Source: a virus (Duplodnaviria; Caudoviricetes). From it: a stretch of DNA of 25,938 nt. The position numbers and the translations under genes were made by a program. The notes below the pieces were generated by a model that worked only from the letters and a program-made list of their open reading frames with translations, had not been told where the DNA came from and ran no database searches. Below are positions 17,239 through 24,779 of the stretch, piece after piece. Within the stretch, counting starts at the first letter, position 1; each line of letters opens with the position of its first letter. Where the stretch lies: the IMG/VR virus record IMGVR_UViG_3300012664_000136, positions 1 through 25,938 of that record, one strand, 5' to 3'.

Positions 17239-17274
17239 TTAATATTTAATTCTTGGTCTTCCTACTTTTGCCAT
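17239..17274 (-). pseudogene. 11-codon mini-ORF MAKVGRPRIKY, possible relic of another small terminase gene
   Basis: ATG with an A-rich context 3 nt after the upstream stop; GRP[RK] starts are common in small terminases. Confidence 0.35.
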
Positions 17275-17277
17275 TTT

Positions 17278-17469
17278 TTATTTCGTGTTTTGGTATCTGT
17301 TTAAATGTTCTTTATATTCTTCTTCCGTTATTTCTGATTGACAGAAAAACTTTTCAAACGGAACGTATATATATACTGCGTGATTTCCTTCAGTTTTTAA
17401 TTGTTCAATGACACCATCTATATAAGGCATCACATCTTTTCCGAATTCAATTCTATAATACTTTTTCAT
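17278..17469 (-). CDS. Hypothetical protein, paralog of 17466-17654
   Basis: KYY-x-I-x-x-GK ... L-x-x-x-G-x-H ... EI-x-E-x-E ... H ... NTK pattern shared with its neighbour. Confidence 0.7.
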   Translation of the reverse strand: MKKYYRIEFGKDVMPYIDGVIEQLKTEGNHAVYIYVPFEKFFCQSEITEEEYKEHLNRYQNTK

Positions 17470-17654
17470 TTCGTGTTTTTGTGTTTCTTAAAGTGGTCTA
17501 AAAATTCATTCTCGTCTATCTCTTCAACACACATTAATCCATCTGCATCTGTAAGGTAAACAACATAGTGATATCCTTGCTTTGTTAGATGGTCAGTTAG
17601 AACGTTTGCTTCTGCAATCATTTCTTTTCCGTGGTCAATGAGATAATATTTCAT
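17466..17654 (-). CDS. Hypothetical protein (start reassigned to MKYYLIDH at 17654)
   Basis: ATG 1 nt after the upstream stop; aligns with the downstream paralog. Confidence 0.7.
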   Translation of the reverse strand: MKYYLIDHGKEMIAEANVLTDHLTKQGYHYVVYLTDADGLMCVEEIDENEFLDHFKKHKNTK

Positions 17655-17655
17655 T

Positions 17656-18033
17656 TTACTCTGTTTCGTATTCATTAAATACCTGCTGCATCTTAACAAT
17701 AATTTCTCTTAAGCAACTTGCACATGACGTTGGTTCTCTTCTTACATGGAAAACTCTGTTGTAAATGTTCAAGATAGCTTCTTGCTCTGTTGGTTTGATG
17801 CTTTGTTTGAATAGTACCTTAGATTCGTTTAGGTAGTTGTATTCGTCTTCTGTTAGGCATTCAGGCTTGTTGTAAGGAAACAATGCGTTCAGTTTCTCTT
17901 TACGTGCTTGACATCCGCAGTCATCTCCTGCTATGAACTTAACGAGTTTCTTGATACCAGTGACTTCTGTTATTTGCTCTATTGTATCTCCTAGTCCTTC
18001 TGCTTTCTTTCTTGGTGTTCGTGTTTTTGCCAT
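17656..18033 (-). CDS. Hypothetical protein with CGC and CxxC motifs (possible Zn binding)
   Basis: GLGDT, DCGC and SCASC motifs. Confidence 0.7.
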   Translation of the reverse strand: MAKTRTPRKKAEGLGDTIEQITEVTGIKKLVKFIAGDDCGCQARKEKLNALFPYNKPECLTEDEYNYLNESKVLFKQSIKPTEQEAILNIYNRVFHVRREPTSCASCLREIIVKMQQVFNEYETE

Positions 18034-18625: not shown

Positions 18626-18650
18626 AAAAAAGCCACCTGTTAAAGTGGCT
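18626..18650 (-). terminator. Intrinsic terminator ending the early/array operon
   Basis: AGCCACT-TTAACA-GGTGGCT hairpin followed by TTTTT. Confidence 0.7.
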
Positions 18651-18861
18651 CTAAATTGTTTAAGTAAATCTCTCTGCTGATGTAGTTATCTAACTTGACT
18701 ACTGTGCAAAGTGTTACATCTTTACCTTGTAAGAACTTGTCAATTTGGTACTGATGGAATCTGCCAGTGTTTGATTTTATCTCTTGAACGATTTGATTCC
18801 GTGTTTTGGTACGAAGCAACATCTCCAATTGCTTTCGCAATCCTACCTCATCAATGTACAT
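18640..18861 (-). CDS. Small HTH-like (Cro/XRE-like) protein
   Basis: 73 aa; QYQIDKFLQGKDVTL-x-TVVKL resembles an XRE-type recognition helix and the helix after it. Confidence 0.5.
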   Translation of the reverse strand: MYIDEVGLRKQLEMLLRTKTRNQIVQEIKSNTGRFHQYQIDKFLQGKDVTLCTVVKLDNYISREIYLNNLEPL

Positions 18862-19292
18862 TAGAAGGGAAGCCCATCATCGTCCATTGAATCAGATACT
18901 GGAACTCTTTCCATTTTTTCAGGTGCAACATAAGGTTCTGAAAAAGCTGCAGAGAAGAAGCTGCCTGCTTTACCTTGCTTTACCCATAAGGCTACTTCCA
19001 TTTCTTTGCCGTTTACGTTTACCTTTCCTTTGTAATCGGGATGTGTGTCTTTAATCTTGTTCGTGTTTTTGAAGATTGCCCCCGTGTTTAACTTGTTTTC
19101 CATTGTATATTTATTTAATTGTTTACGTTTAAAATCCCTTATTTCTTGCTTTCCATTGTATCTTGCATTAATAATCTGCTTCTTATGCATTTCTTTGGCT
19201 TGTTCCCAACATTTTCTATTGTGTTCAAGGTCTTCTTCGTCATATGGAGTTGGTATTAACTCCTTCTGCAACCATTCTACTGTTGTTTTCAT
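18861..19292 (-). CDS. Array-family unit fused in frame to an SSB/DUF736-like protein (internal start at 19103)
   Basis: N-terminal MKTTVEW...QAKEM; C-terminal 80 aa GAIFKN...HPDYKG...ALW with an acidic DDDGLPF tail typical of SSBs. Confidence 0.7.
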   Translation of the reverse strand: MKTTVEWLQKELIPTPYDEEDLEHNRKCWEQAKEMHKKQIINARYNGKQEIRDFKRKQLNKYTMENKLNTGAIFKNTNKIKDTHPDYKGKVNVNGKEMEVALWVKQGKAGSFFSAAFSEPYVAPEKMERVPVSDSMDDDGLPF

Positions 19293-19738
19293 TGTTCTTG
19301 TTGTTTAAATTTCTCATTATAATACTCAATACCACTCTCAAAATCTTCTCCCGTCTTTTTGGAGTAGAAGTAGTTGTGTTCTCCATCTTCAAATGCTTGA
19401 GCAAAATAACTCATTTCAAGGTCTTTTGCTTCTTGTATTTCCTTGCTAAATAATTCAACAATTTTTGAATCATAGTTTCTTAATAAATCAACCATTAGAT
19501 GTATTGGAGTTTTTACTTTACCTGATTTTCCATTATTCATTGCTATTTCTTTAAACATTTCACATTCTCCTCTAAAAGATATTTCTTGAGTACCAAAATT
19601 GTATTTATCATAAACTTGACAAGCAAACTCAATCTTTTCTTGTTGCTCTTTCACTCTAGCTGTTTCATATACATCTAAAAAATCATTTGGTATAATGTGT
19701 TTGATTTCATCATAAAACCATTCTACTGTTGTTTTCAT
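19289..19738 (-). CDS. Array-family protein (two tandem units)
   Basis: MKTTVEWF start, an internal second QEAKDLE...AFEDG unit, and an EYYNEKFKQQEQ end. Confidence 0.8.
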   Translation of the reverse strand: MKTTVEWFYDEIKHIIPNDFLDVYETARVKEQQEKIEFACQVYDKYNFGTQEISFRGECEMFKEIAMNNGKSGKVKTPIHLMVDLLRNYDSKIVELFSKEIQEAKDLEMSYFAQAFEDGEHNYFYSKKTGEDFESGIEYYNEKFKQQEQ

Positions 19739-19756
19739 TGTTCTTGTTGTTTAGTT

Positions 19757-20140
19757 TTAAATTGCATATTTCCATCCAAATCTACCCGCTGTGTTTGCTT
19801 CATGATTGCAGCATCTATTGATATTAGCTACTTCAACTTTATTCTTTACTGAAGCTATAGTAGCTGAATCATAGCTGCATATGTAAACTCCTTCATAGTA
19901 TTTATGAATAGGCTTTACATGGTGTTGAGTGCAATTACTTACATCTCCTATTTTATTGATGATTCTTTTTTTGCCTTTTACTTCTCTAAATTGCATATTG
20001 ATAGTAGTTAAAACACTTCCATTAAGGCAATTATTTAAAGAGCCTTGTGGTATATCAAGCTGTTTTTCAAGTTCTACTATTGTTTTTACAATATGTACTT
20101 CTAATAAATGTCCTTCAAGGTCATACATTGCTATTTTCAT
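19757..20140 (-). CDS. Protein with two NUMOD1-like DNA-binding repeats and no nuclease domain
   Basis: IAMYDLEG-x-LL...SLNNCLNG and YDSATIAS...NINRCC...TAGRFGWKY. Confidence 0.7.
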   Translation of the reverse strand: MKIAMYDLEGHLLEVHIVKTIVELEKQLDIPQGSLNNCLNGSVLTTINMQFREVKGKKRIINKIGDVSNCTQHHVKPIHKYYEGVYICSYDSATIASVKNKVEVANINRCCNHEANTAGRFGWKYAI

Positions 20141-20343
20141 TGTTCTTGTTGTTTAAAGGTTTCGTTATAATATTCTTCGTTTCTCCAAGCATTTTGGTCA
20201 AAGCAACCCTCATGAAAAGCATTCATAATCTGCTCCTTCTCCATTTCTTTGGCTTGATTAATTTCATTGACATGAGTAATAATAAAATCATCACTATCAT
20301 ATTTAGAGTTTAATTGTTCGATAAACCATTCTACTGCTGTCAT
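20137..20343 (-). CDS. Array-family protein
   Basis: MTAVEWF...QAKEMEKEQI...EEYYNETFKQQEQ. Confidence 0.8.
   Translation of the reverse strand: MTAVEWFIEQLNSKYDSDDFIITHVNEINQAKEMEKEQIMNAFHEGCFDQNAWRNEEYYNETFKQQEQ
20226..20340. repeat. 115-bp near-identical duplicate of 21466-21580
   Basis: Direct comparison gives 2 mismatches (20271/21511 and 20297/21537), offset 1240 bp. Confidence 0.95.
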
Positions 20344-20344
20344 A

Positions 20345-20737
20345 TTATTCTGATTTAAGTTTTAAAATTATGCATCCATTTTCATCTAAGCAAGGCTTAT
20401 AGATTTCTGAATCTTCTTCTTCGTCAAGCTTTGAAGCCCACCAATCTTTGTGATTATCATCATTAGTTTTTGATACACATTTAGTTTTGTTAATATCACA
20501 TTTACCATCCGTATCAAAACAACAATTGTTGCAACTTCTGTTAGAGTAGTCTTGTTCCAACTCAACTTTAACATTCAATACAGGGAAGACTTCATCATTA
20601 GATTCTTTTTGTTGTTCAATTTCTTGACAGTTTTTTGCAGATAATCTTGCATAAGGTGCATTCTCAGTTGTTGCATATATAATGTCGTTTACCGTTAGTA
20701 CCCAACCATTTTTTACTTTAATTAATATTCCTTCCAT
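20345..20737 (-). CDS. Hypothetical array cargo protein with Cys cluster
   Basis: 130 aa, C-x-x-CC...C...C, ends in KSE. Confidence 0.75.
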   Translation of the reverse strand: MEGILIKVKNGWVLTVNDIIYATTENAPYARLSAKNCQEIEQQKESNDEVFPVLNVKVELEQDYSNRSCNNCCFDTDGKCDINKTKCVSKTNDDNHKDWWASKLDEEEDSEIYKPCLDENGCIILKLKSE

Positions 20738-20738
20738 T

Positions 20739-21326
20739 TTATTTTGATTTAAAGGTTATTTTTGTTTTTACATAACTGCTATTACTATGTATTTCATAAC
20801 TATTTAATTTTTCTTGTTGTTTAAAAGTTTGGTTGTAGTATTCTTCCCCATTTTCAAAATTACCAATACATCTATGGTGGTCATAGGCATCTATAATTTT
20901 TTGCTTCTCCATTTCTTTGGCTTGTTCAAAAACTTTAGTATTTTTTATATCTTGATTTACAAATACTTTTTCAATCTCATCAACCAACCATTCTACTGCT
21001 GTCTTCATTGTTTTTTGTTTAGCTTCTTCTTGTGGAATAATGATTTTGTAAATCCTTTGACCAAATTTTTGAACTTCAATTTTCTCACAACTTAGATTCT
21101 TAACAAACCATTCAAGGAACTCATCGTCAATAGCTTGTACACCATTTTTGATTAAATCTTGGTTTGTTGTTAGGATGATTTTATTATATCTACCTCCAAA
21201 ATCCCAAAAGAAATCAGGAGTAACTAAAGTTGGTTGCTCATTATTTCTAATCATCCAATCACCCTCTTTAATTTCTTCATCAGCAGTGATGTAGATATGA
21301 TTTGGTAATACATGTATGTTTTTCAT
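20739..21326 (-). CDS. Fusion of a cargo protein (MKNIH...EEIKEGDW...KIILTT) and an array-family unit (internal MKTAVEW at 21008)
   Basis: Internal degenerate junction repeat at 21005-21020; the second half carries all family motifs. Confidence 0.8.
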   Translation of the reverse strand: MKNIHVLPNHIYITADEEIKEGDWMIRNNEQPTLVTPDFFWDFGGRYNKIILTTNQDLIKNGVQAIDDEFLEWFVKNLSCEKIEVQKFGQRIYKIIIPQEEAKQKTMKTAVEWLVDEIEKVFVNQDIKNTKVFEQAKEMEKQKIIDAYDHHRCIGNFENGEEYYNQTFKQQEKLNSYEIHSNSSYVKTKITFKSK

Positions 21327-21586
21327 TGTTCTTGTTGTTTAAAGGTTTCGTTTTTTATTCCTTCTAAAGCGGATAATACGCCACCTAAATATATTACATC
21401 TTTAAGTGATGATGCTTTACTTTGTAATTCTTCAAATTTTTCAATTGCCTTTTGTATTTTAGCATTAATCTGCTCCTTCTCCATTTCTTTGGCTTGATTA
21501 ATTTCATTGATATGAGTAATAATAAAATCATCACTACCATATTTAGAGTTTAATTGTTCGATAAACCATTCTACTGCTGTTTTCAT
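21323..21586 (-). CDS. Array-family protein
   Basis: MKTAVEWF...QAKEMEKEQI...NETFKQQEQ. Confidence 0.8.
   Translation of the reverse strand: MKTAVEWFIEQLNSKYGSDDFIITHINEINQAKEMEKEQINAKIQKAIEKFEELQSKASSLKDVIYLGGVLSALEGIKNETFKQQEQ
21466..21580. repeat. 115-bp near-identical duplicate of 20226-20340
   Basis: Two mismatches relative to the other copy. Confidence 0.95.
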
Positions 21587-21602
21587 TGTTCTTGTTGTTT
21601 AG

Positions 21603-21857
21603 TTATGAAATCCAATCTGTATGTATTGTAATAATACCATTATCAATACTTTCAGCACTTGCGCCTAAAAAAGTTAATGGTTGACCTTCAACATAAGAAA
21701 AATTGTAGTATTCATAAGTATTTGAACACTCTTCATATCGCTCTACAATAACTTCACCCGTTTCTTTATTTTGGTAGTAGTTGTTATTGTATGAAGAAAG
21801 TATTTCTAAGCAAACATAATCCGCTCTGTCTAGTATGATTTCTTCTGTCTCTTTCAT
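21603..21857 (-). CDS. Hypothetical array cargo protein (acidic, Tyr-rich)
   Basis: Its ATG lies in the repeat; it stops 2 nt before the next repeat. Confidence 0.75.
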   Translation of the reverse strand: MKETEEIILDRADYVCLEILSSYNNNYYQNKETGEVIVERYEECSNTYEYYNFSYVEGQPLTFLGASAESIDNGIITIHTDWIS

Positions 21858-22054
21858 TGTTCTTGTTGTTTAAAGGTTTGGTTGTAATATTCTTCTGCAT
21901 CTTCATCAGAACACGGATGCAAATCTGCTTTGTATGCCATTTCTATCTGCTCTTTCTCTATTTCTTTGGCTTCTTTAAATAACTTTAAGTCTTCATTAGT
22001 TAACATGTTATTCTCCCAAAGTTTTGCTTGTAATCTTTCTACTGCTGTTCTCAT
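21854..22054 (-). CDS. Array-family protein
   Basis: MRTAVERL...EAKEIEKEQI...EEYYNQTFKQQEQ. Confidence 0.8.
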   Translation of the reverse strand: MRTAVERLQAKLWENNMLTNEDLKLFKEAKEIEKEQIEMAYKADLHPCSDEDAEEYYNQTFKQQEQ

Positions 22055-22299
22055 TGTTCTTGTTGTTTAGTTAATAAAGATTTTTCTAATTTATCCGCTA
22101 ACTGCTGTGCGTTTTTTACGACTTCTCCTGCAATTAACTTTAAGTATGGCTTAGACATTTCATCAGTTACTTTGACTGAAAACGATTCAAATTCATCATT
22201 TTGAAATTCAATCTTACCTTCATATCTATCCTCTGTTTTGTTGAAAGAGTAACCTTGTTTAAACTCAAGAGTTATCTTTTTTAATTTCCATTCACTCAT
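22051..22299 (-). CDS. Hypothetical array cargo protein
   Basis: Body unrelated to the family; ends TKQQEQ. Confidence 0.75.
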   Translation of the reverse strand: MSEWKLKKITLEFKQGYSFNKTEDRYEGKIEFQNDEFESFSVKVTDEMSKPYLKLIAGEVVKNAQQLADKLEKSLLTKQQEQ

Positions 22300-22577
22300 T
22301 GTTCTTGTTGTTTAGTTTCAATTCGTTTTTTATACCCATTACAAATATCAAGAATGAAATCCATTCTATCTTCTTCAGAATCGAATCCAGTCATCATTTC
22401 ATCTAATGTATCTTTTAAAATAGCAACTTGACTTTCAATTGATTCGTGTTTTTGTCTTTTATCAATTTTTTCTGCTTGTTCAAATATTTGGTCAAAGGTC
22501 ATATTTTCATACCAATACTCATCGCACATTAATTTCTCTTTAATATACTCTACTGCTGATAATTTTTCTTTTTTCAT
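22296..22577 (-). CDS. Divergent array-family protein
   Basis: SAVEYI...IFEQAEKIDK; ends TKQQEQ. Confidence 0.75.
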   Translation of the reverse strand: MKKEKLSAVEYIKEKLMCDEYWYENMTFDQIFEQAEKIDKRQKHESIESQVAILKDTLDEMMTGFDSEEDRMDFILDICNGYKKRIETKQQEQ

Positions 22578-22596
22578 TGTTCTTGTTATTTAAATG

Positions 22597-22830
22597 TTAA
22601 TTAATTTTTTCGCTTTTGTATTCTCTAACAACGTCCATATATTCGTCTTTCAGTCGTTCCAAGTAAAGTACAAAGTCCATAGCTTCTTCTTGTGCGTGTG
22701 TAAGCCATTCTAACGTGCTTAAATCGGTTCTTTCTAACGTTGTGTTGTACTTGGTTATTCCGACTTGCGAACGTTCGCTGAATCGACTAAGAACACGCAG
22801 AACAATCTTATCTTCTATTTGCTGATTCAT
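22597..22830 (-). CDS. Hypothetical phage protein (helical, EE-x-x-D motif reminiscent of all-alpha NTP pyrophosphatases)
   Basis: G-x-x-KY-x-TTL and WL-x-HAQEEAMDF-x-LY; function uncertain. Confidence 0.65.
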   Translation of the reverse strand: MNQQIEDKIVLRVLSRFSERSQVGITKYNTTLERTDLSTLEWLTHAQEEAMDFVLYLERLKDEYMDVVREYKSEKIN

Positions 22831-23036
22831 ATTTCGTTTTTTAGTTGTTTAACATATTTACTTGCATTATTTCCAAATCCATTAGTTTCAAAATTAGTAC
22901 CATCGAAATATGCTTGTTCTAATTGTTGCGTTTCATATTTTTGTGCTTTATCCCATAACATTGAATTATGTTCAAAATCAGCTTCTGAAATCGGCTCTGA
23001 AATTAAGTTGTTTAATAACCATTCTAATACACTCAT
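22827..23036 (-). CDS. Divergent array-family protein (start reassigned to MSVLEWLL at 23036)
   Basis: ATGA overlap with the exonuclease stop; similar to the N-terminus of 18861-19292. Confidence 0.7.
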   Translation of the reverse strand: MSVLEWLLNNLISEPISEADFEHNSMLWDKAQKYETQQLEQAYFDGTNFETNGFGNNASKYVKQLKNEI

Positions 23037-23704
23037 AAGAAATTTATTAAGGTGTTGTAATACTCTCTGCAAAGCTCTACCTGTTCTTTGATTCTTTCAA
23101 TCACTGCTTCGTCTTTCTGTACATAAAAGACTTTCACACGTCGATTCTTTGGAATGTGTGAGAAGATATGCTTCTTCTGTATTTCGTCTCGTAAGTCTAA
23201 ACTTTCTTCCATTAGGTTTAACTTCCAATGGGTACGTCTAATCTCATCCTCAACCATTAACTCAGGTGTGTCAACTAAGCAATAACATAGCATTGATTGT
23301 TGTTTACCTGTTAGCCACATATATCCTTGCAGTTGGTAGAAGTAATCCTTTGTAGGTATTTCAGTTTCAAAGAATGGAAAGGTAGAACCATCCCAAGAGC
23401 TTTTAACGTCTAACAATACTTCTTCCGTGTTTACATCAGGTGTTCCTGTAATCCAATCATTTTGATAGTGTTCTTCGTTCTTGTAAATGAATCCAACGTC
23501 AAGCACTTCGTTTACTAGGTTGATAGATTCGTTTTCAACTTCGTTTCCTTTGTCTGTGTAACGTGAACTGAACTCTTTTCTGATTCCGTATTTATCTTGT
23601 AAGACTAATTCGTGGATATAAGTCTTTGCAGTTTGACTAAGCAACTCCGATTTGTTTCTCGGACTACTCATAATCTTTCCTATAGCAGAGCATCTAACTT
23701 TCAT
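23033..23704 (-). CDS. YqaJ/lambda-type recombination exonuclease
   Basis: RCSA, G-x-x-x-E, GTPD...DVKS (PD-D/ExK) and YFYQLQGYM motifs. Confidence 0.85.
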   Translation of the reverse strand: MKVRCSAIGKIMSSPRNKSELLSQTAKTYIHELVLQDKYGIRKEFSSRYTDKGNEVENESINLVNEVLDVGFIYKNEEHYQNDWITGTPDVNTEEVLLDVKSSWDGSTFPFFETEIPTKDYFYQLQGYMWLTGKQQSMLCYCLVDTPELMVEDEIRRTHWKLNLMEESLDLRDEIQKKHIFSHIPKNRRVKVFYVQKDEAVIERIKEQVELCREYYNTLINFL

Positions 23705-24219
23705 AGTGCGTTCAATATATCGATTTGACCATCTGTTAACTGAAATTTGCTTTCTAAAGACTCACGTGTTATCTTTCCTTCCGTTACTGCTTTGACTGCG
23801 TCTTGGAATCTCTTAGCGTCTAAGGTTTGTTTCTTTGGTTCGTTTTTTACTTGCTCTCCTCCTGCATCAGTATCTTTGTCTGTAACTAATCCGAGCATTG
23901 CACTAATAGCATATCTGCGAATGTAAGTGATTGCAGAACCTAAAACTTGGAAGTCATTCATTCCTTTTAGTTGTACGTTTTGAGGAATAGTAGTTGAACT
24001 TTGGATTTGCTCTCCTGATTCTACGTGGAAGAGAATTGTTAATACATCTCCTTCGTTAATTAACTGAGTGAATCCTAATCCGTGTTTTTTTAGTAATGGA
24101 TTGATTACACTAAAGATTTTCGGTAAGTCAGAGTAGGAATATCCATAGCCTTGTGTTGCTTTGTGGATGACAGGAACTTCTTGTTGGAACGCAGCCAACG
24201 ACTTAAATAAATGTTTCAT
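23701..24219 (-). CDS. erf: ERF-family single-strand annealing protein
   Basis: YGYSYSDL, PLL-x-KHGL, GSAITYIRRYAISAMLGL and D-x-D motifs. Confidence 0.9.
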   Translation of the reverse strand: MKHLFKSLAAFQQEVPVIHKATQGYGYSYSDLPKIFSVINPLLKKHGLGFTQLINEGDVLTILFHVESGEQIQSSTTIPQNVQLKGMNDFQVLGSAITYIRRYAISAMLGLVTDKDTDAGGEQVKNEPKKQTLDAKRFQDAVKAVTEGKITRESLESKFQLTDGQIDILNAL

Positions 24220-24254: not shown

Positions 24255-24779
24255 TTATTTCATATCTAGCACTAAATCTTTATATTTTTTTATAATTTCT
24301 TTTAACTCGTCTTTCGTAAACTTTCTTTCTATATGTGCTATTGAATCTAAATCAGATAATTTATCTGCTCCATATCTTTTTATAAATCCTAACCTGTAAT
24401 TATTTATATCACCTGACTTATCTTTATTGCAAGGTCTTGAGCATTGAGCATTAACATTAAATTCATTAAAACGCAGGTTGCTATGACCTCCTGCACTCCA
24501 CATATGTCCTGCATCCACATTTCCTTTTCGTATTGGTTTATTGCAAGAAATACAATTTAACCCCTCATCCCTTAATCTGATGTACTTGTTGAATATTGTC
24601 TGTGCTTCCTTTAACCAATCCTGTGTAGTTTTTAACTCTGTTTTCATTCGTTTTTTTGTTTCTTTCCATTGTTTTTGTTGGAAATCTACAACAGCAGCTT
24701 TTAAACATTCATGTTGTAAACAATATTTTTGATTGAATCTGATAGGTTCAAACTTTTGTTTGCAGTTTTTACATCTCAT
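24255..24779 (-). CDS. ninG: NinG/Rap-family junction endonuclease
   Basis: N-terminal CxxC...C-x-x-x-x-C, FNKYIRLRD, CISC, DAGH, LRFNE-x-N-x-x-x-QC and CN motifs. Confidence 0.9.
   Translation of the reverse strand: MRCKNCKQKFEPIRFNQKYCLQHECLKAAVVDFQQKQWKETKKRMKTELKTTQDWLKEAQTIFNKYIRLRDEGLNCISCNKPIRKGNVDAGHMWSAGGHSNLRFNEFNVNAQCSRPCNKDKSGDINNYRLGFIKRYGADKLSDLDSIAHIERKFTKDELKEIIKKYKDLVLDMK

What the first reader, a model, noticed from the sequence alone, without database searches (positions are those of the whole stretch)
19289..22591. Gene-cassette array joined by an invariant 18-nt stop/start repeat (candidate undescribed plug-in system)
Seen: AAACAACAAGAACAATGA occurs at nine gene junctions (8 perfect, 1 with one mismatch) plus two degenerate copies, and I did not notice it elsewhere in the window. 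Every intact copy provides the next gene's ATG, and in six it also encodes KQQEQ-stop of the previous gene (ATGA overlap). Units are typically ~200-450 bp and include paralogs as well as unrelated cargo (NUMOD1 protein, 21603, 22051). Inference: recombination between repeats would add, delete or reorder whole genes while keeping start, stop and translational coupling. This resembles an integron functionally, but no integrase or palindromic attC is visible.
Basis: partly seen in the sequence, partly recalled or inferred. Interest (0 to 1): 0.92.

Follow-up and report, generated by a model that had tools for sequence, protein, structure and literature searches.

The report
Shared stop-start connector swaps phage genes
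An uncultured aquatic phage strings about a dozen tiny genes together with one repeated 19-letter stop/start sequence, and the same genes, cut exactly at that sequence, turn up almost unchanged with other neighbours, in other orders and even in an unrelated phage about six times larger, so the sequence likely works as a common plug for trading single genes.

Summary
In detail: 8 exact and 1 one-mismatch copies of the 18-mer sit at gene junctions (chance mean 0.26), plus two decayed copies inside a fused gene. The window is 85% of a ~30-kb tailed phage, probably infecting Bacteroidota. In 28 close relatives the same interval spans 475-4175 bp in 24 gene orders. Across 791 junctions, identity between shared genes starts at connector base -15 and ends just after its ATGA. 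Window units recur with new neighbours, in swapped order, and at 97.7% identity in an unrelated 174-kb phage with 21 copies. No integrase, resolvase, hairpin or promoter was found. A second connector type and a mid-gene swap point exist. Best reading: an unstructured translation-start/stop joint that doubles as a short homology patch for general phage recombination. It works like T4 PeSL cassettes but is not one. Against: connector-free junctions also swap (35-40%), and no recombination or circle was shown. Earlier notes of this scan reported the same kind of connector on other DNA.

The parts
19289..19307 (-). Connector R, exact; ends gene 19289-19738 (KQQEQ-stop), starts the SSB-like gene
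19735..19753 (-). Connector R, exact; upstream stop 4 nt before
20137..20155 (-). Connector R, exact; KQQEQ-stop
20344..20357 (-). Connector S (second type, reads KSE-stop), 1 mismatch to the common form
20738..20751 (-). Connector S-like, 2 mismatches
20805..20822 (-). Decayed connector R (2 mismatches, stop and start lost), read through inside gene 20739-21326
21005..21020 (-). Decayed connector R, 2 nt short; fuses two units in frame inside gene 20739-21326
21323..21341 (-). Connector R, exact; KQQEQ-stop
21583..21601 (-). Connector R, exact; upstream stop 2 nt before
21854..21872 (-). Connector R, exact; KQQEQ-stop
22051..22069 (-). Connector R, exact; KQQEQ-stop
22296..22314 (-). Connector R, exact; KQQEQ-stop; bridged by an independent contig
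   Evidence: X1 record 8
22574..22592 (-). First connector R of the array, 1 mismatch
19289..19738 (-). Cargo, 149 aa, unknown function; found 5 differences away, in swapped order with the next unit, in run X11
19757..20140 (-). Cargo, 127 aa, weak NUMOD-like hit (below cut-off); unit found with 0-18 differences beside other neighbours in several phages
20137..20343 (-). Cargo, 68 aa, member of the large MKTAVEW/QAKEMEKEQ family; predicted four helices
20345..20737 (-). Cargo, 130 aa, unknown; bounded by two S-type connectors
20739..21326 (-). 195-aa ORF, apparently three units fused through two decayed connectors
21323..21586 (-). Cargo, 87 aa, family member; N-half shares 115 nt at 98% with 20137-20343, C-half matches another phage's gene at 95%
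   Evidence: (D7)
21603..21857 (-). Cargo, 84 aa, unknown; homolog in L171 sits before an S connector instead
21854..22054 (-). Cargo, 66 aa, family member
22051..22299 (-). Cargo, 82 aa, unknown; same unit (257 of 263 nt) in unrelated 173,789-bp phage G006
22296..22577 (-). Cargo, 93 aa; unit found with 0 differences in runs X5 and X6, in X6 directly followed by unit 19735-20154
20237..20267 (-). Mid-gene DNA motif (QAKEMEKEQ codons), a second swap point; other copies at 19183, 20905, 21477, 21954, 22459
   Evidence: (D4, D6)
18861..19292 (-). Downstream flank: SSB-like gene with a swapped N-terminal extension taken from the family
   Evidence: (phrog_18154, E 4.6e-13)
22597..22830 (-). Upstream flank: conserved 77-aa gene of unknown function
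23033..23704 (-). Exonuclease (RecE/YqaJ-type); candidate resection partner, role inferred
   Evidence: phrog_5715, E 3.2e-62
23701..24219 (-). Erf single-strand annealing protein; candidate recombinase, role inferred
   Evidence: PF04404, E 3.8e-28
24255..24779 (-). NinG/Rap junction endonuclease
   Evidence: PF05766, E 1.9e-37

Best explanation
The repeat is a standard 19-nt gene joint that holds a start codon and two stop codons, marks the exact edges of single genes shared between phages, and likely serves as the short homology patch at which the phages' general recombination proteins swap those genes. Shown: unit edges fall inside the connector; units change neighbours and order; units cross between unrelated phages; there is no integrase, resolvase or hairpin. 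Inferred: the A-rich, unstructured sequence is a strong Bacteroidota-type translation start with an overlapping stop, so any gene that arrives is expressed and its neighbour stays intact. Inferred: crossover is homology-driven (here exonuclease plus Erf, other recombinases in other phages) during co-infection or between genome copies, giving deletion, duplication, reordering and import. Inferred: letter-for-letter conservation is kept because only genes with the common connector stay in the exchange pool. The same process likely acts at a second connector type and at a conserved mid-gene motif, making chimeric members of one small-protein family.
For: Interval 475-4175 bp, 24 gene orders in 28 complete close relatives chosen by exonuclease, not by the repeat. 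Copies are confined to this interval (1 outside copy in 81 loci). Identity steps from background to 0.9 or more at -15 for a shared downstream gene and falls after ATGA for a shared upstream gene; bases between stop and connector travel with the upstream gene. 108 of 115 genes seen twice or more have at least two upstream partners. Swapped neighbours: 239 of 250 pairs at connectors against 395 of 1056 at connector-free small genes; in close relatives 40 of 44 against 165 of 472. One 433-nt unit has 0 differences in a contig whose core genes differ by 7-10%. Two adjacent window units appear in swapped order, joined across 24 shared letters; another contig skips the intervening units at the connector. 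A window unit is 257 of 263 identical in 173,789-bp G006, which has no match to this portal or Erf and has 21 copies in four clusters. An identical 210-nt unit occurs in a 30-kb-type locus and in 66-kb contigs. Silent A>G changes at 2 of 1112 third positions against 18-28% in cargo codons, so conservation is in the nucleotides, not the peptide. Connector type clusters within arrays, 95 of 104 adjacent pairs against 62.5 by permutation. Half-gene swaps at the mid-gene motif, 37 pairs against 10 unswapped. A at -3, -6, -12, -13 in both connector types, as in PMC6847099.
Against: Connector-free junctions also change neighbours often (35-42% of pairs), with breakpoints at the start codon (median -2), so these phages are mosaic anyway and sharp edges alone do not prove that the repeat drives exchange. 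If every cargo gene simply needs this leader, edges would also fall here. 19 nt is short for homologous recombination (own knowledge; PMC2839356 cites patches under 50 bp for T4). The same gene occurs behind either connector type (25 R/S pairs among 423), so exchange also happens without a matching connector. Pair counts are not independent events, and most loci were fetched by exact match to a connector. No raw reads, circles or experiments; the role of Erf is inferred from proximity, and G006 lacks this Erf.
Confidence: 0.68

Rival explanations
1. The repeat is only an optimal translation start/coupling signal. Genes move by sequence-independent recombination, and selection keeps the products that retain a whole gene with this leader.
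For: A at -3, -6, -12, -13 matches F. johnsoniae determinants (PMC6847099, passages). No structure. Variation falls on the C/G positions and spares the As. Connector-free junctions swap at 35-42%.
Against: None of 33 non-array genes of the window, the capsid gene included, comes closer than 5 mismatches to either 14-nt leader, so strong expression does not need it. A loose A-rich rule does not demand 18 fixed letters in unrelated phages. It does not explain the clustering of connector types or half-gene swaps at a motif that is not a start site.
Confidence: 0.17
2. A dedicated site-specific recombinase, phage- or host-encoded and of unknown family, cuts at the connector, as in integrons.
For: Near-invariant site, one orientation, precise unit edges. 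Variants at -14 and -13 travel only with the upstream gene (10 of 10 against 0 of 9). The swapped order in X11 is what excision of a two-gene circle and re-entry at the middle copy would give.
Against: No PF00589 in 5 of 5 complete relatives, the window or G006; no PF00239 in 5 of 5 records. No dyad symmetry or hairpin. At least two connector sequences plus a mid-gene motif behave alike. Variants at -11 are shared both ways (2 of 17 upstream, 2 of 10 downstream), which fits a dispersed crossover, on small numbers. Carrier phages hold different recombinases.
Confidence: 0.08
3. The repeat is a binding site for a regulator (RNA- or DNA-binding) that co-controls these early genes, like the proposed role of mycobacteriophage SAS; shuffling is a by-product.
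For: Fixed, asymmetric, one orientation, at start codons of non-structural genes, as SAS (PMC3203893, passages). Nucleotide-level conservation.
Against: Shared by phages with no detected common core genes at the loci tested. Close relatives carry 0-10 copies or the other type. No shared regulator was identified; a host protein was not excluded.
Confidence: 0.05
4. The array is an assembly chimera stitched at the repeat.
For: It is the longest of 28 complete intervals (4175 against 3434 bp for the next). No run holds the whole stretch. One internal 115-nt block is 98% duplicated.
Against: The repeat is shorter than the 31-letter words of the independent contigs, one of which bridges the 22296 copy with 35 and 274 letters on its two sides (X1 record 8). 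Hundreds of other contigs show the same architecture. This could affect the order in this one contig, not the phenomenon.
Confidence: 0.02

Closest known systems
PeSL (promoter-early stem-loop) cassettes of T4-type phages (Arbiol et al. 2010, PMC2839356: abstract, sections 13 and 21 read; Comeau et al. 2014, PMC4122927: abstract only)
   Same: Repeated motif before small unknown genes in hypervariable regions; indels and replacements at the motif; no dedicated recombinase identified; compared with integrons by the authors.
   Different: A PeSL is an intergenic sigma70 promoter plus terminator hairpin plus Shine-Dalgarno, falls into five subclasses, and isolates genes transcriptionally. This element is 19 nt, nearly invariant, unstructured, overlaps both genes and couples them. 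It is shared by unrelated phage groups and comes with mid-gene swapping. PeSL mini-circles were shown by experiment; none is shown here.
Start-Associated Sequences (SAS) of Cluster K mycobacteriophages (Pope et al. 2011, PMC3203893: passages read)
   Same: Short asymmetric repeat, one orientation, at start codons of non-structural genes, sometimes holding the upstream stop.
   Different: SAS has a Shine-Dalgarno core, lies 3-7 bp before the start, and was rare outside Cluster K. The passages seen propose translation initiation, not gene exchange. This repeat includes the ATG, has no Shine-Dalgarno and crosses phage groups.
Botstein-Campbell 'linker' model of modular phage evolution (as described in PMC2839356, discussion); lambdoid boundary sequences (recalled, not read)
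   Same: Conserved short sequences at module edges allow in-register exchange by general recombination.
   Different: Here one linker is repeated at every junction, so any gene can go to any slot, and the module is a single 100-450 bp gene or half a gene.
Integron gene-cassette arrays (features recalled)
   Same: Arrays of single promoterless genes that are gained, lost and reordered.
   Different: No tyrosine integrase, no palindromic attC, and the site is coding and overlaps both genes.
Kozak-like translation initiation region of Flavobacterium johnsoniae (Baez et al. 2019, PMC6847099: passages read)
   Same: A at -3, -6, -12, -13, no Shine-Dalgarno, low structure.
   Different: That is a loose statistical preference; this is a fixed sequence restricted to swappable genes.

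Membership tests
Integron | Tyrosine integrase IntI next to the array | tested here: not met
   PF00589: 0 of 5 relatives (99-100% complete); none in G000, G006, G007, one sub-cut-off fragment in G008; controls rang in 14 of 14
Integron | Palindromic attC site that folds as a hairpin | tested here: not met
   Four R junctions and one S junction fold no better than shuffles (z -0.94 to 1.35); no short-range inverted repeat at a junction among the 25 listed
Integron | Single-gene cassettes with variable content and order | tested here: met
Integron | Circular cassette intermediates | not testable with these tools
   Only assembled contigs were available
PeSL | Sigma70-like promoter within the repeat | tested here: not met
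   17 promoter-like sites against 21.8 expected; the repeat holds no hexamer pair; Bacteroidota -7 motif (recalled) not enriched and not in the repeat
PeSL | Terminator stem-loop within the repeat | tested here: not met
PeSL | Located before small unknown genes in a hypervariable region | tested here: met
PeSL | Gene gain, loss and replacement with breakpoints at the motif | tested here: met
PeSL | Mini-circles formed between neighbouring motifs | tested here: inconclusive
   Swapped order in X11 fits a circle but also duplication followed by deletion
SAS (Cluster K mycobacteriophages) | Short asymmetric repeat at start codons of non-structural genes, one orientation | tested here: met
   245 of 273 copies open an ORF of 30 aa or more; one strand in each of 4 genomes with matches
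SAS (Cluster K mycobacteriophages) | Shine-Dalgarno core in the repeat, 3-7 bp before the start codon | tested here: not met
   Sequence: one G upstream of the ATG, and the repeat includes the ATG
Bacteroidota Kozak-like start region | A at -3, -6, -12, -13 | tested here: met
   Read from both connector sequences; positions from PMC6847099
Bacteroidota Kozak-like start region | Measured high initiation rate | not testable with these tools
   Needs a reporter or ribosome profiling
Serine site-specific recombination system | Resolvase-family catalytic domain in the phage | tested here: not met
   PF00239: 0 of 5 records, 4 of them complete; PF07508 was not searched

The most novel reading that the evidence does not exclude
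Unrelated Bacteroidota phages share an integrase-free gene-cassette standard: a 19-nt stop/start plug, kept invariant because it is the exchange site, through which hundreds of small genes circulate among 30-kb, 66-kb and 174-kb phages, probably as short circles. A second, mid-gene plug recombines halves of one small helical protein family into a combinatorial repertoire, likely aimed at host or rival-phage targets.
Probability: 0.35. Interest if true: 0.9.

Novelty: new variant of a known kind. Interest (0 to 1): 0.72.

Why it matters
How phages swap single small genes precisely at gene edges is a long-standing question: targeted exchange at linkers, or random breaks filtered by selection. 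This locus gives a near-invariant linker, hundreds of natural recombinants and a measurable breakpoint, so the two models can be tested directly. It also shows a gene pool shared across phage groups that differ about sixfold in genome size. The connector is a search handle for accessory genes: 749 connector-led genes in 311 families came from partial scans; the 11 window genes scanned have no Pfam hit above cut-off. They are candidates for host take-over or counter-defence functions (inference).

Tried and rejected
Cultured phages: no DNA match to the array and no tblastn match for one family member. A 23-nt hit in 68 Elemovirus records turned out to be the start of a family gene, not the connector; neither connector is within 3 mismatches in the two records examined. 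Cellular genomes: 25 single hits in 596 Gb, no arrays, about what chance gives (4-29 expected), so no host or prophage was found this way. Conserved C-terminal peptide tag (KQQEQ) as the cause: rejected, since silent sites are fixed and amino-acid-changing sites vary, and about half of the copies are not translated in that frame (267 of 545). tRNA cargo: suspected from one junction, but 0 of 17 ARAGORN tRNAs have a connector within 60 nt downstream. Promoter or terminator role: no enrichment. Cargo function: Pfam and PHROGs gave nothing above cut-off for array genes; the Atlas returned only unnamed viral clusters; an AlphaFold model of the family member (pLDDT 82, four helices) had no match at E 0.001 or better in BFVD or PDB; pdb_via_wide was not run. 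The YuzD/HEPN names on some homologs were not supported by these searches. Literature: nine answered searches and a tenth found no paper on this repeat; the library lacks most subscription papers, and no supplements were read.


Full report
Observation. The 18-mer has 11 matches at up to 3 mismatches in the window against a shuffle mean of 0.26. Ten lie in 19289-22591 on the minus strand: 8 exact, one with 1 and one with 2 mismatches. All nine intact copies give the ATG of the next ORF, and six end the previous gene as KQQEQ-stop. A T at -15 belongs to the element (93% of 215 exact copies), which puts a second stop codon in frame with the ATG. A further decayed copy at 21005-21020 is 2 nt short; with the copy at 20805 it explains the 195-aa ORF 20739-21326 as three fused units. 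Two junctions (20344, 20738) carry another motif, here called S.

Context. The window is a virus record, 85% complete, with terminase, portal and tape-measure genes. Its complete relatives are 30-31.5 kb. The array lies between an exonuclease-Erf-NinG block and an SSB-like gene. The host is probably Bacteroidota: the only cultured portal matches are Nonlabens phages P12024S/L at 34.7% (4 records), and two cultured Flavobacterium Elemovirus records examined encode members of the same small-gene families (translations shown for one). The runs I laid are labelled freshwater or aquatic (7 of 22).

Variation in relatives. I fetched 80 loci by exonuclease similarity, independent of the repeat. Among the 42 at 94% or more (window included), 28 hold the whole interval: 475-4175 bp, 24 gene orders; five of the seven loci that share an order have no or one connector. 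Copies at up to 2 mismatches are confined to the interval; one lay outside in 81 loci. Gene calls came from my own simple tiling script and may hold errors.

Breakpoints. From all viral and metagenome loci I took 791 distinct connector junctions (545 R, 228 S, 18 of a short form; the 25 cellular loci were left out). For pairs sharing the downstream gene, identity is background up to -16 and 0.9 or more from -15. For pairs sharing the upstream gene it stays above 0.9 over the last 20 bases up to the connector and falls to background after ATGA. Of 115 downstream genes seen at least twice, 108 have two or more upstream partners; 770 of 791 adjacencies are distinct. Control: at connector junctions between small genes 239 of 250 pairs had unrelated neighbours (80 of 84 genes), at connector-free small-gene junctions 395 of 1056 (62 of 153 genes), and at other connector-free junctions 717 of 1711. 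Within close relatives the figures are 40 of 44 against 165 of 472 and 272 of 678. The control is high and its breakpoints centre on the start codon (median -2). This weighs against a unique role for the repeat, though some control swaps may be array edges or mis-calls. Pairs are not independent events.

Units of this window elsewhere. In run X2 one contig matches 19730-20162 with 0 differences while its flanking conserved genes differ at 14 of 191 and 81 of 808 letters. The same unit has different neighbours in L140/L482 and L483. In X11 one 1906-nt contig holds 19732-20133 and then 19286-19750 (3 and 5 differences), the reverse of the window's order, joined across 24 shared letters. In X6, 22296-22592 (0 differences) is followed directly by 19730-20136. 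In X1 a contig bridges the 22296 copy. These were laid at 90 and 93% likeness and come from other phages, not this one.

Crossing phage groups. About 620 stored viral stretches hold the exact R motif and about 480 the S motif (estimates from partial scans). G006 (173,789 bp, 100% complete) has 21 copies at up to 1 mismatch, on one strand, in four clusters. It has no match to this phage's portal or Erf and, by my reading of its ORFs, thymidylate synthase and queuosine-pathway genes (labels recalled). It carries window unit 22051-22313 at 257 of 263 letters with other neighbours on both sides. An identical 210-nt unit occurs in L191 (30-kb type) and in 66-kb contigs. Carriers differ in recombinase: Erf here, an AAA_24 (Sak4-like, label recalled) protein in G007, RecA-family hits in G006. 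Cellular genomes have 25 single hits, within chance.

What is conserved. In 278 copies read as KQQEQ, silent A>G changes number 2 of 1112 sites, against 18-28% G-ending codons in cargo; 49 changes fall on first codon positions. Most loci were fetched by exact match, so variants are under-sampled, but the positional pattern stands. Both connectors have A at -3, -6, -12 and -13, the positive determinants of initiation in F. johnsoniae (PMC6847099, passages), and do not fold. Yet none of 33 non-array genes in the window comes within 4 mismatches. Connector type clusters within arrays (95 of 104 adjacent pairs; permutation mean 62.5, max 81). The same gene does occur with either type, often with its first codons replaced too. 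Variants at -14/-13 follow the upstream gene (10 of 10 against 0 of 9); the others are mostly unshared.

A second level. Of 749 connector-led genes (311 families, 203 singletons), 155 start like MKTAVE and 85 of these have a QAKEMEKEQ-type middle; 80 were usable. Among these, 37 pairs share one half and have an unrelated other half, against 10 that share both. The middle motif keeps G-ending codons that are otherwise rare, which suggests a DNA-level swap point (inference). The family folds as four predicted helices with no structural match; its function is open.

Mechanism. Shown: unit edges, reshuffling, cross-group sharing, nucleotide-level conservation, absence of PF00589 and PF00239 in the records searched. 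Inferred: the connector is both a good start/stop joint and a homology patch for general recombination, and the two roles reinforce each other. I put 0.68 on this, 0.17 on translation signal plus selection alone, 0.08 on a dedicated recombinase, 0.05 on a regulator site and 0.02 on a chimera.

Comparison. It works like T4 PeSL cassettes (PMC2839356, abstract and sections 13, 21; PMC4122927, abstract) but fails their promoter and stem-loop features. It resembles SAS in position (PMC3203893, passages) but lacks the Shine-Dalgarno core. It fails the integron tests. Ten library searches found no description of this element; subscription papers and supplements were not seen. Earlier notes of this scan describe the same or similar connectors in other genomes; they are unchecked AI notes and I do not count them as support. 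The word 'connector' is taken from them; PeSL and SAS were already in my notes. Verdict: real, a new variant of a known kind, interest 0.72.

Noticed in passing
L510:2143-3290 (G006 172642-173789): Three units (239, 200, 212 nt) are repeated in tandem from connector to connector; the 497 letters up to the contig end are identical. Either unequal crossing-over or an end-of-contig artefact.
   Followed up: partly
L014:5437-6018: A GIY-YIG endonuclease gene with NUMOD motifs ends in KQQEQ at a connector inside the queuosine-like operon of the 174-kb phage; a selfish nuclease may ride or seed connector sites.
   Followed up: partly
window 18861-19292; relatives' cluster 3: The SSB-like gene is often fused to a variable N-terminal extension; here the extension is half of a family gene.
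   Followed up: partly
L505:5993-6219, L506:5793-6019 (Flavobacterium Elemovirus records): Cultured phages carry the same small-gene families joined by a different short A-rich motif (3 copies per 12 kb), and elemoA and elemoF differ by two whole genes with the break at the start codon. A possible cultured test system.
   Followed up: partly
L168, L169, L140, L158: A recurring longer junction in which the connector's ATG is lost and a further A-rich leader follows; possibly a third joint type.
   Followed up: no
L156, L507, L209: R and S connectors occur back to back, 14-24 nt apart, as if an adaptor between the two types.
   Followed up: no
L154, L168, L153, L143, L158, L139: Larger ORFs that look like HNH or other homing endonucleases (my reading) are inserted next to the exonuclease and SSB genes without connectors.
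   Followed up: no
window 20226-20340 and 21466-21580: 115-nt duplication at 98% covering the N-terminal half of two family genes.
   Followed up: yes
window 18629-18652, minus strand: Terminator-like hairpin just after the gene that follows the SSB-like gene, a likely end of the operon that holds the array.
   Followed up: no
window 17274-17335 and 17462-17523: Two adjacent small genes (17278-17469, 17466-17699) share a 62-nt end at 71% identity; a possible old duplication.
   Followed up: no
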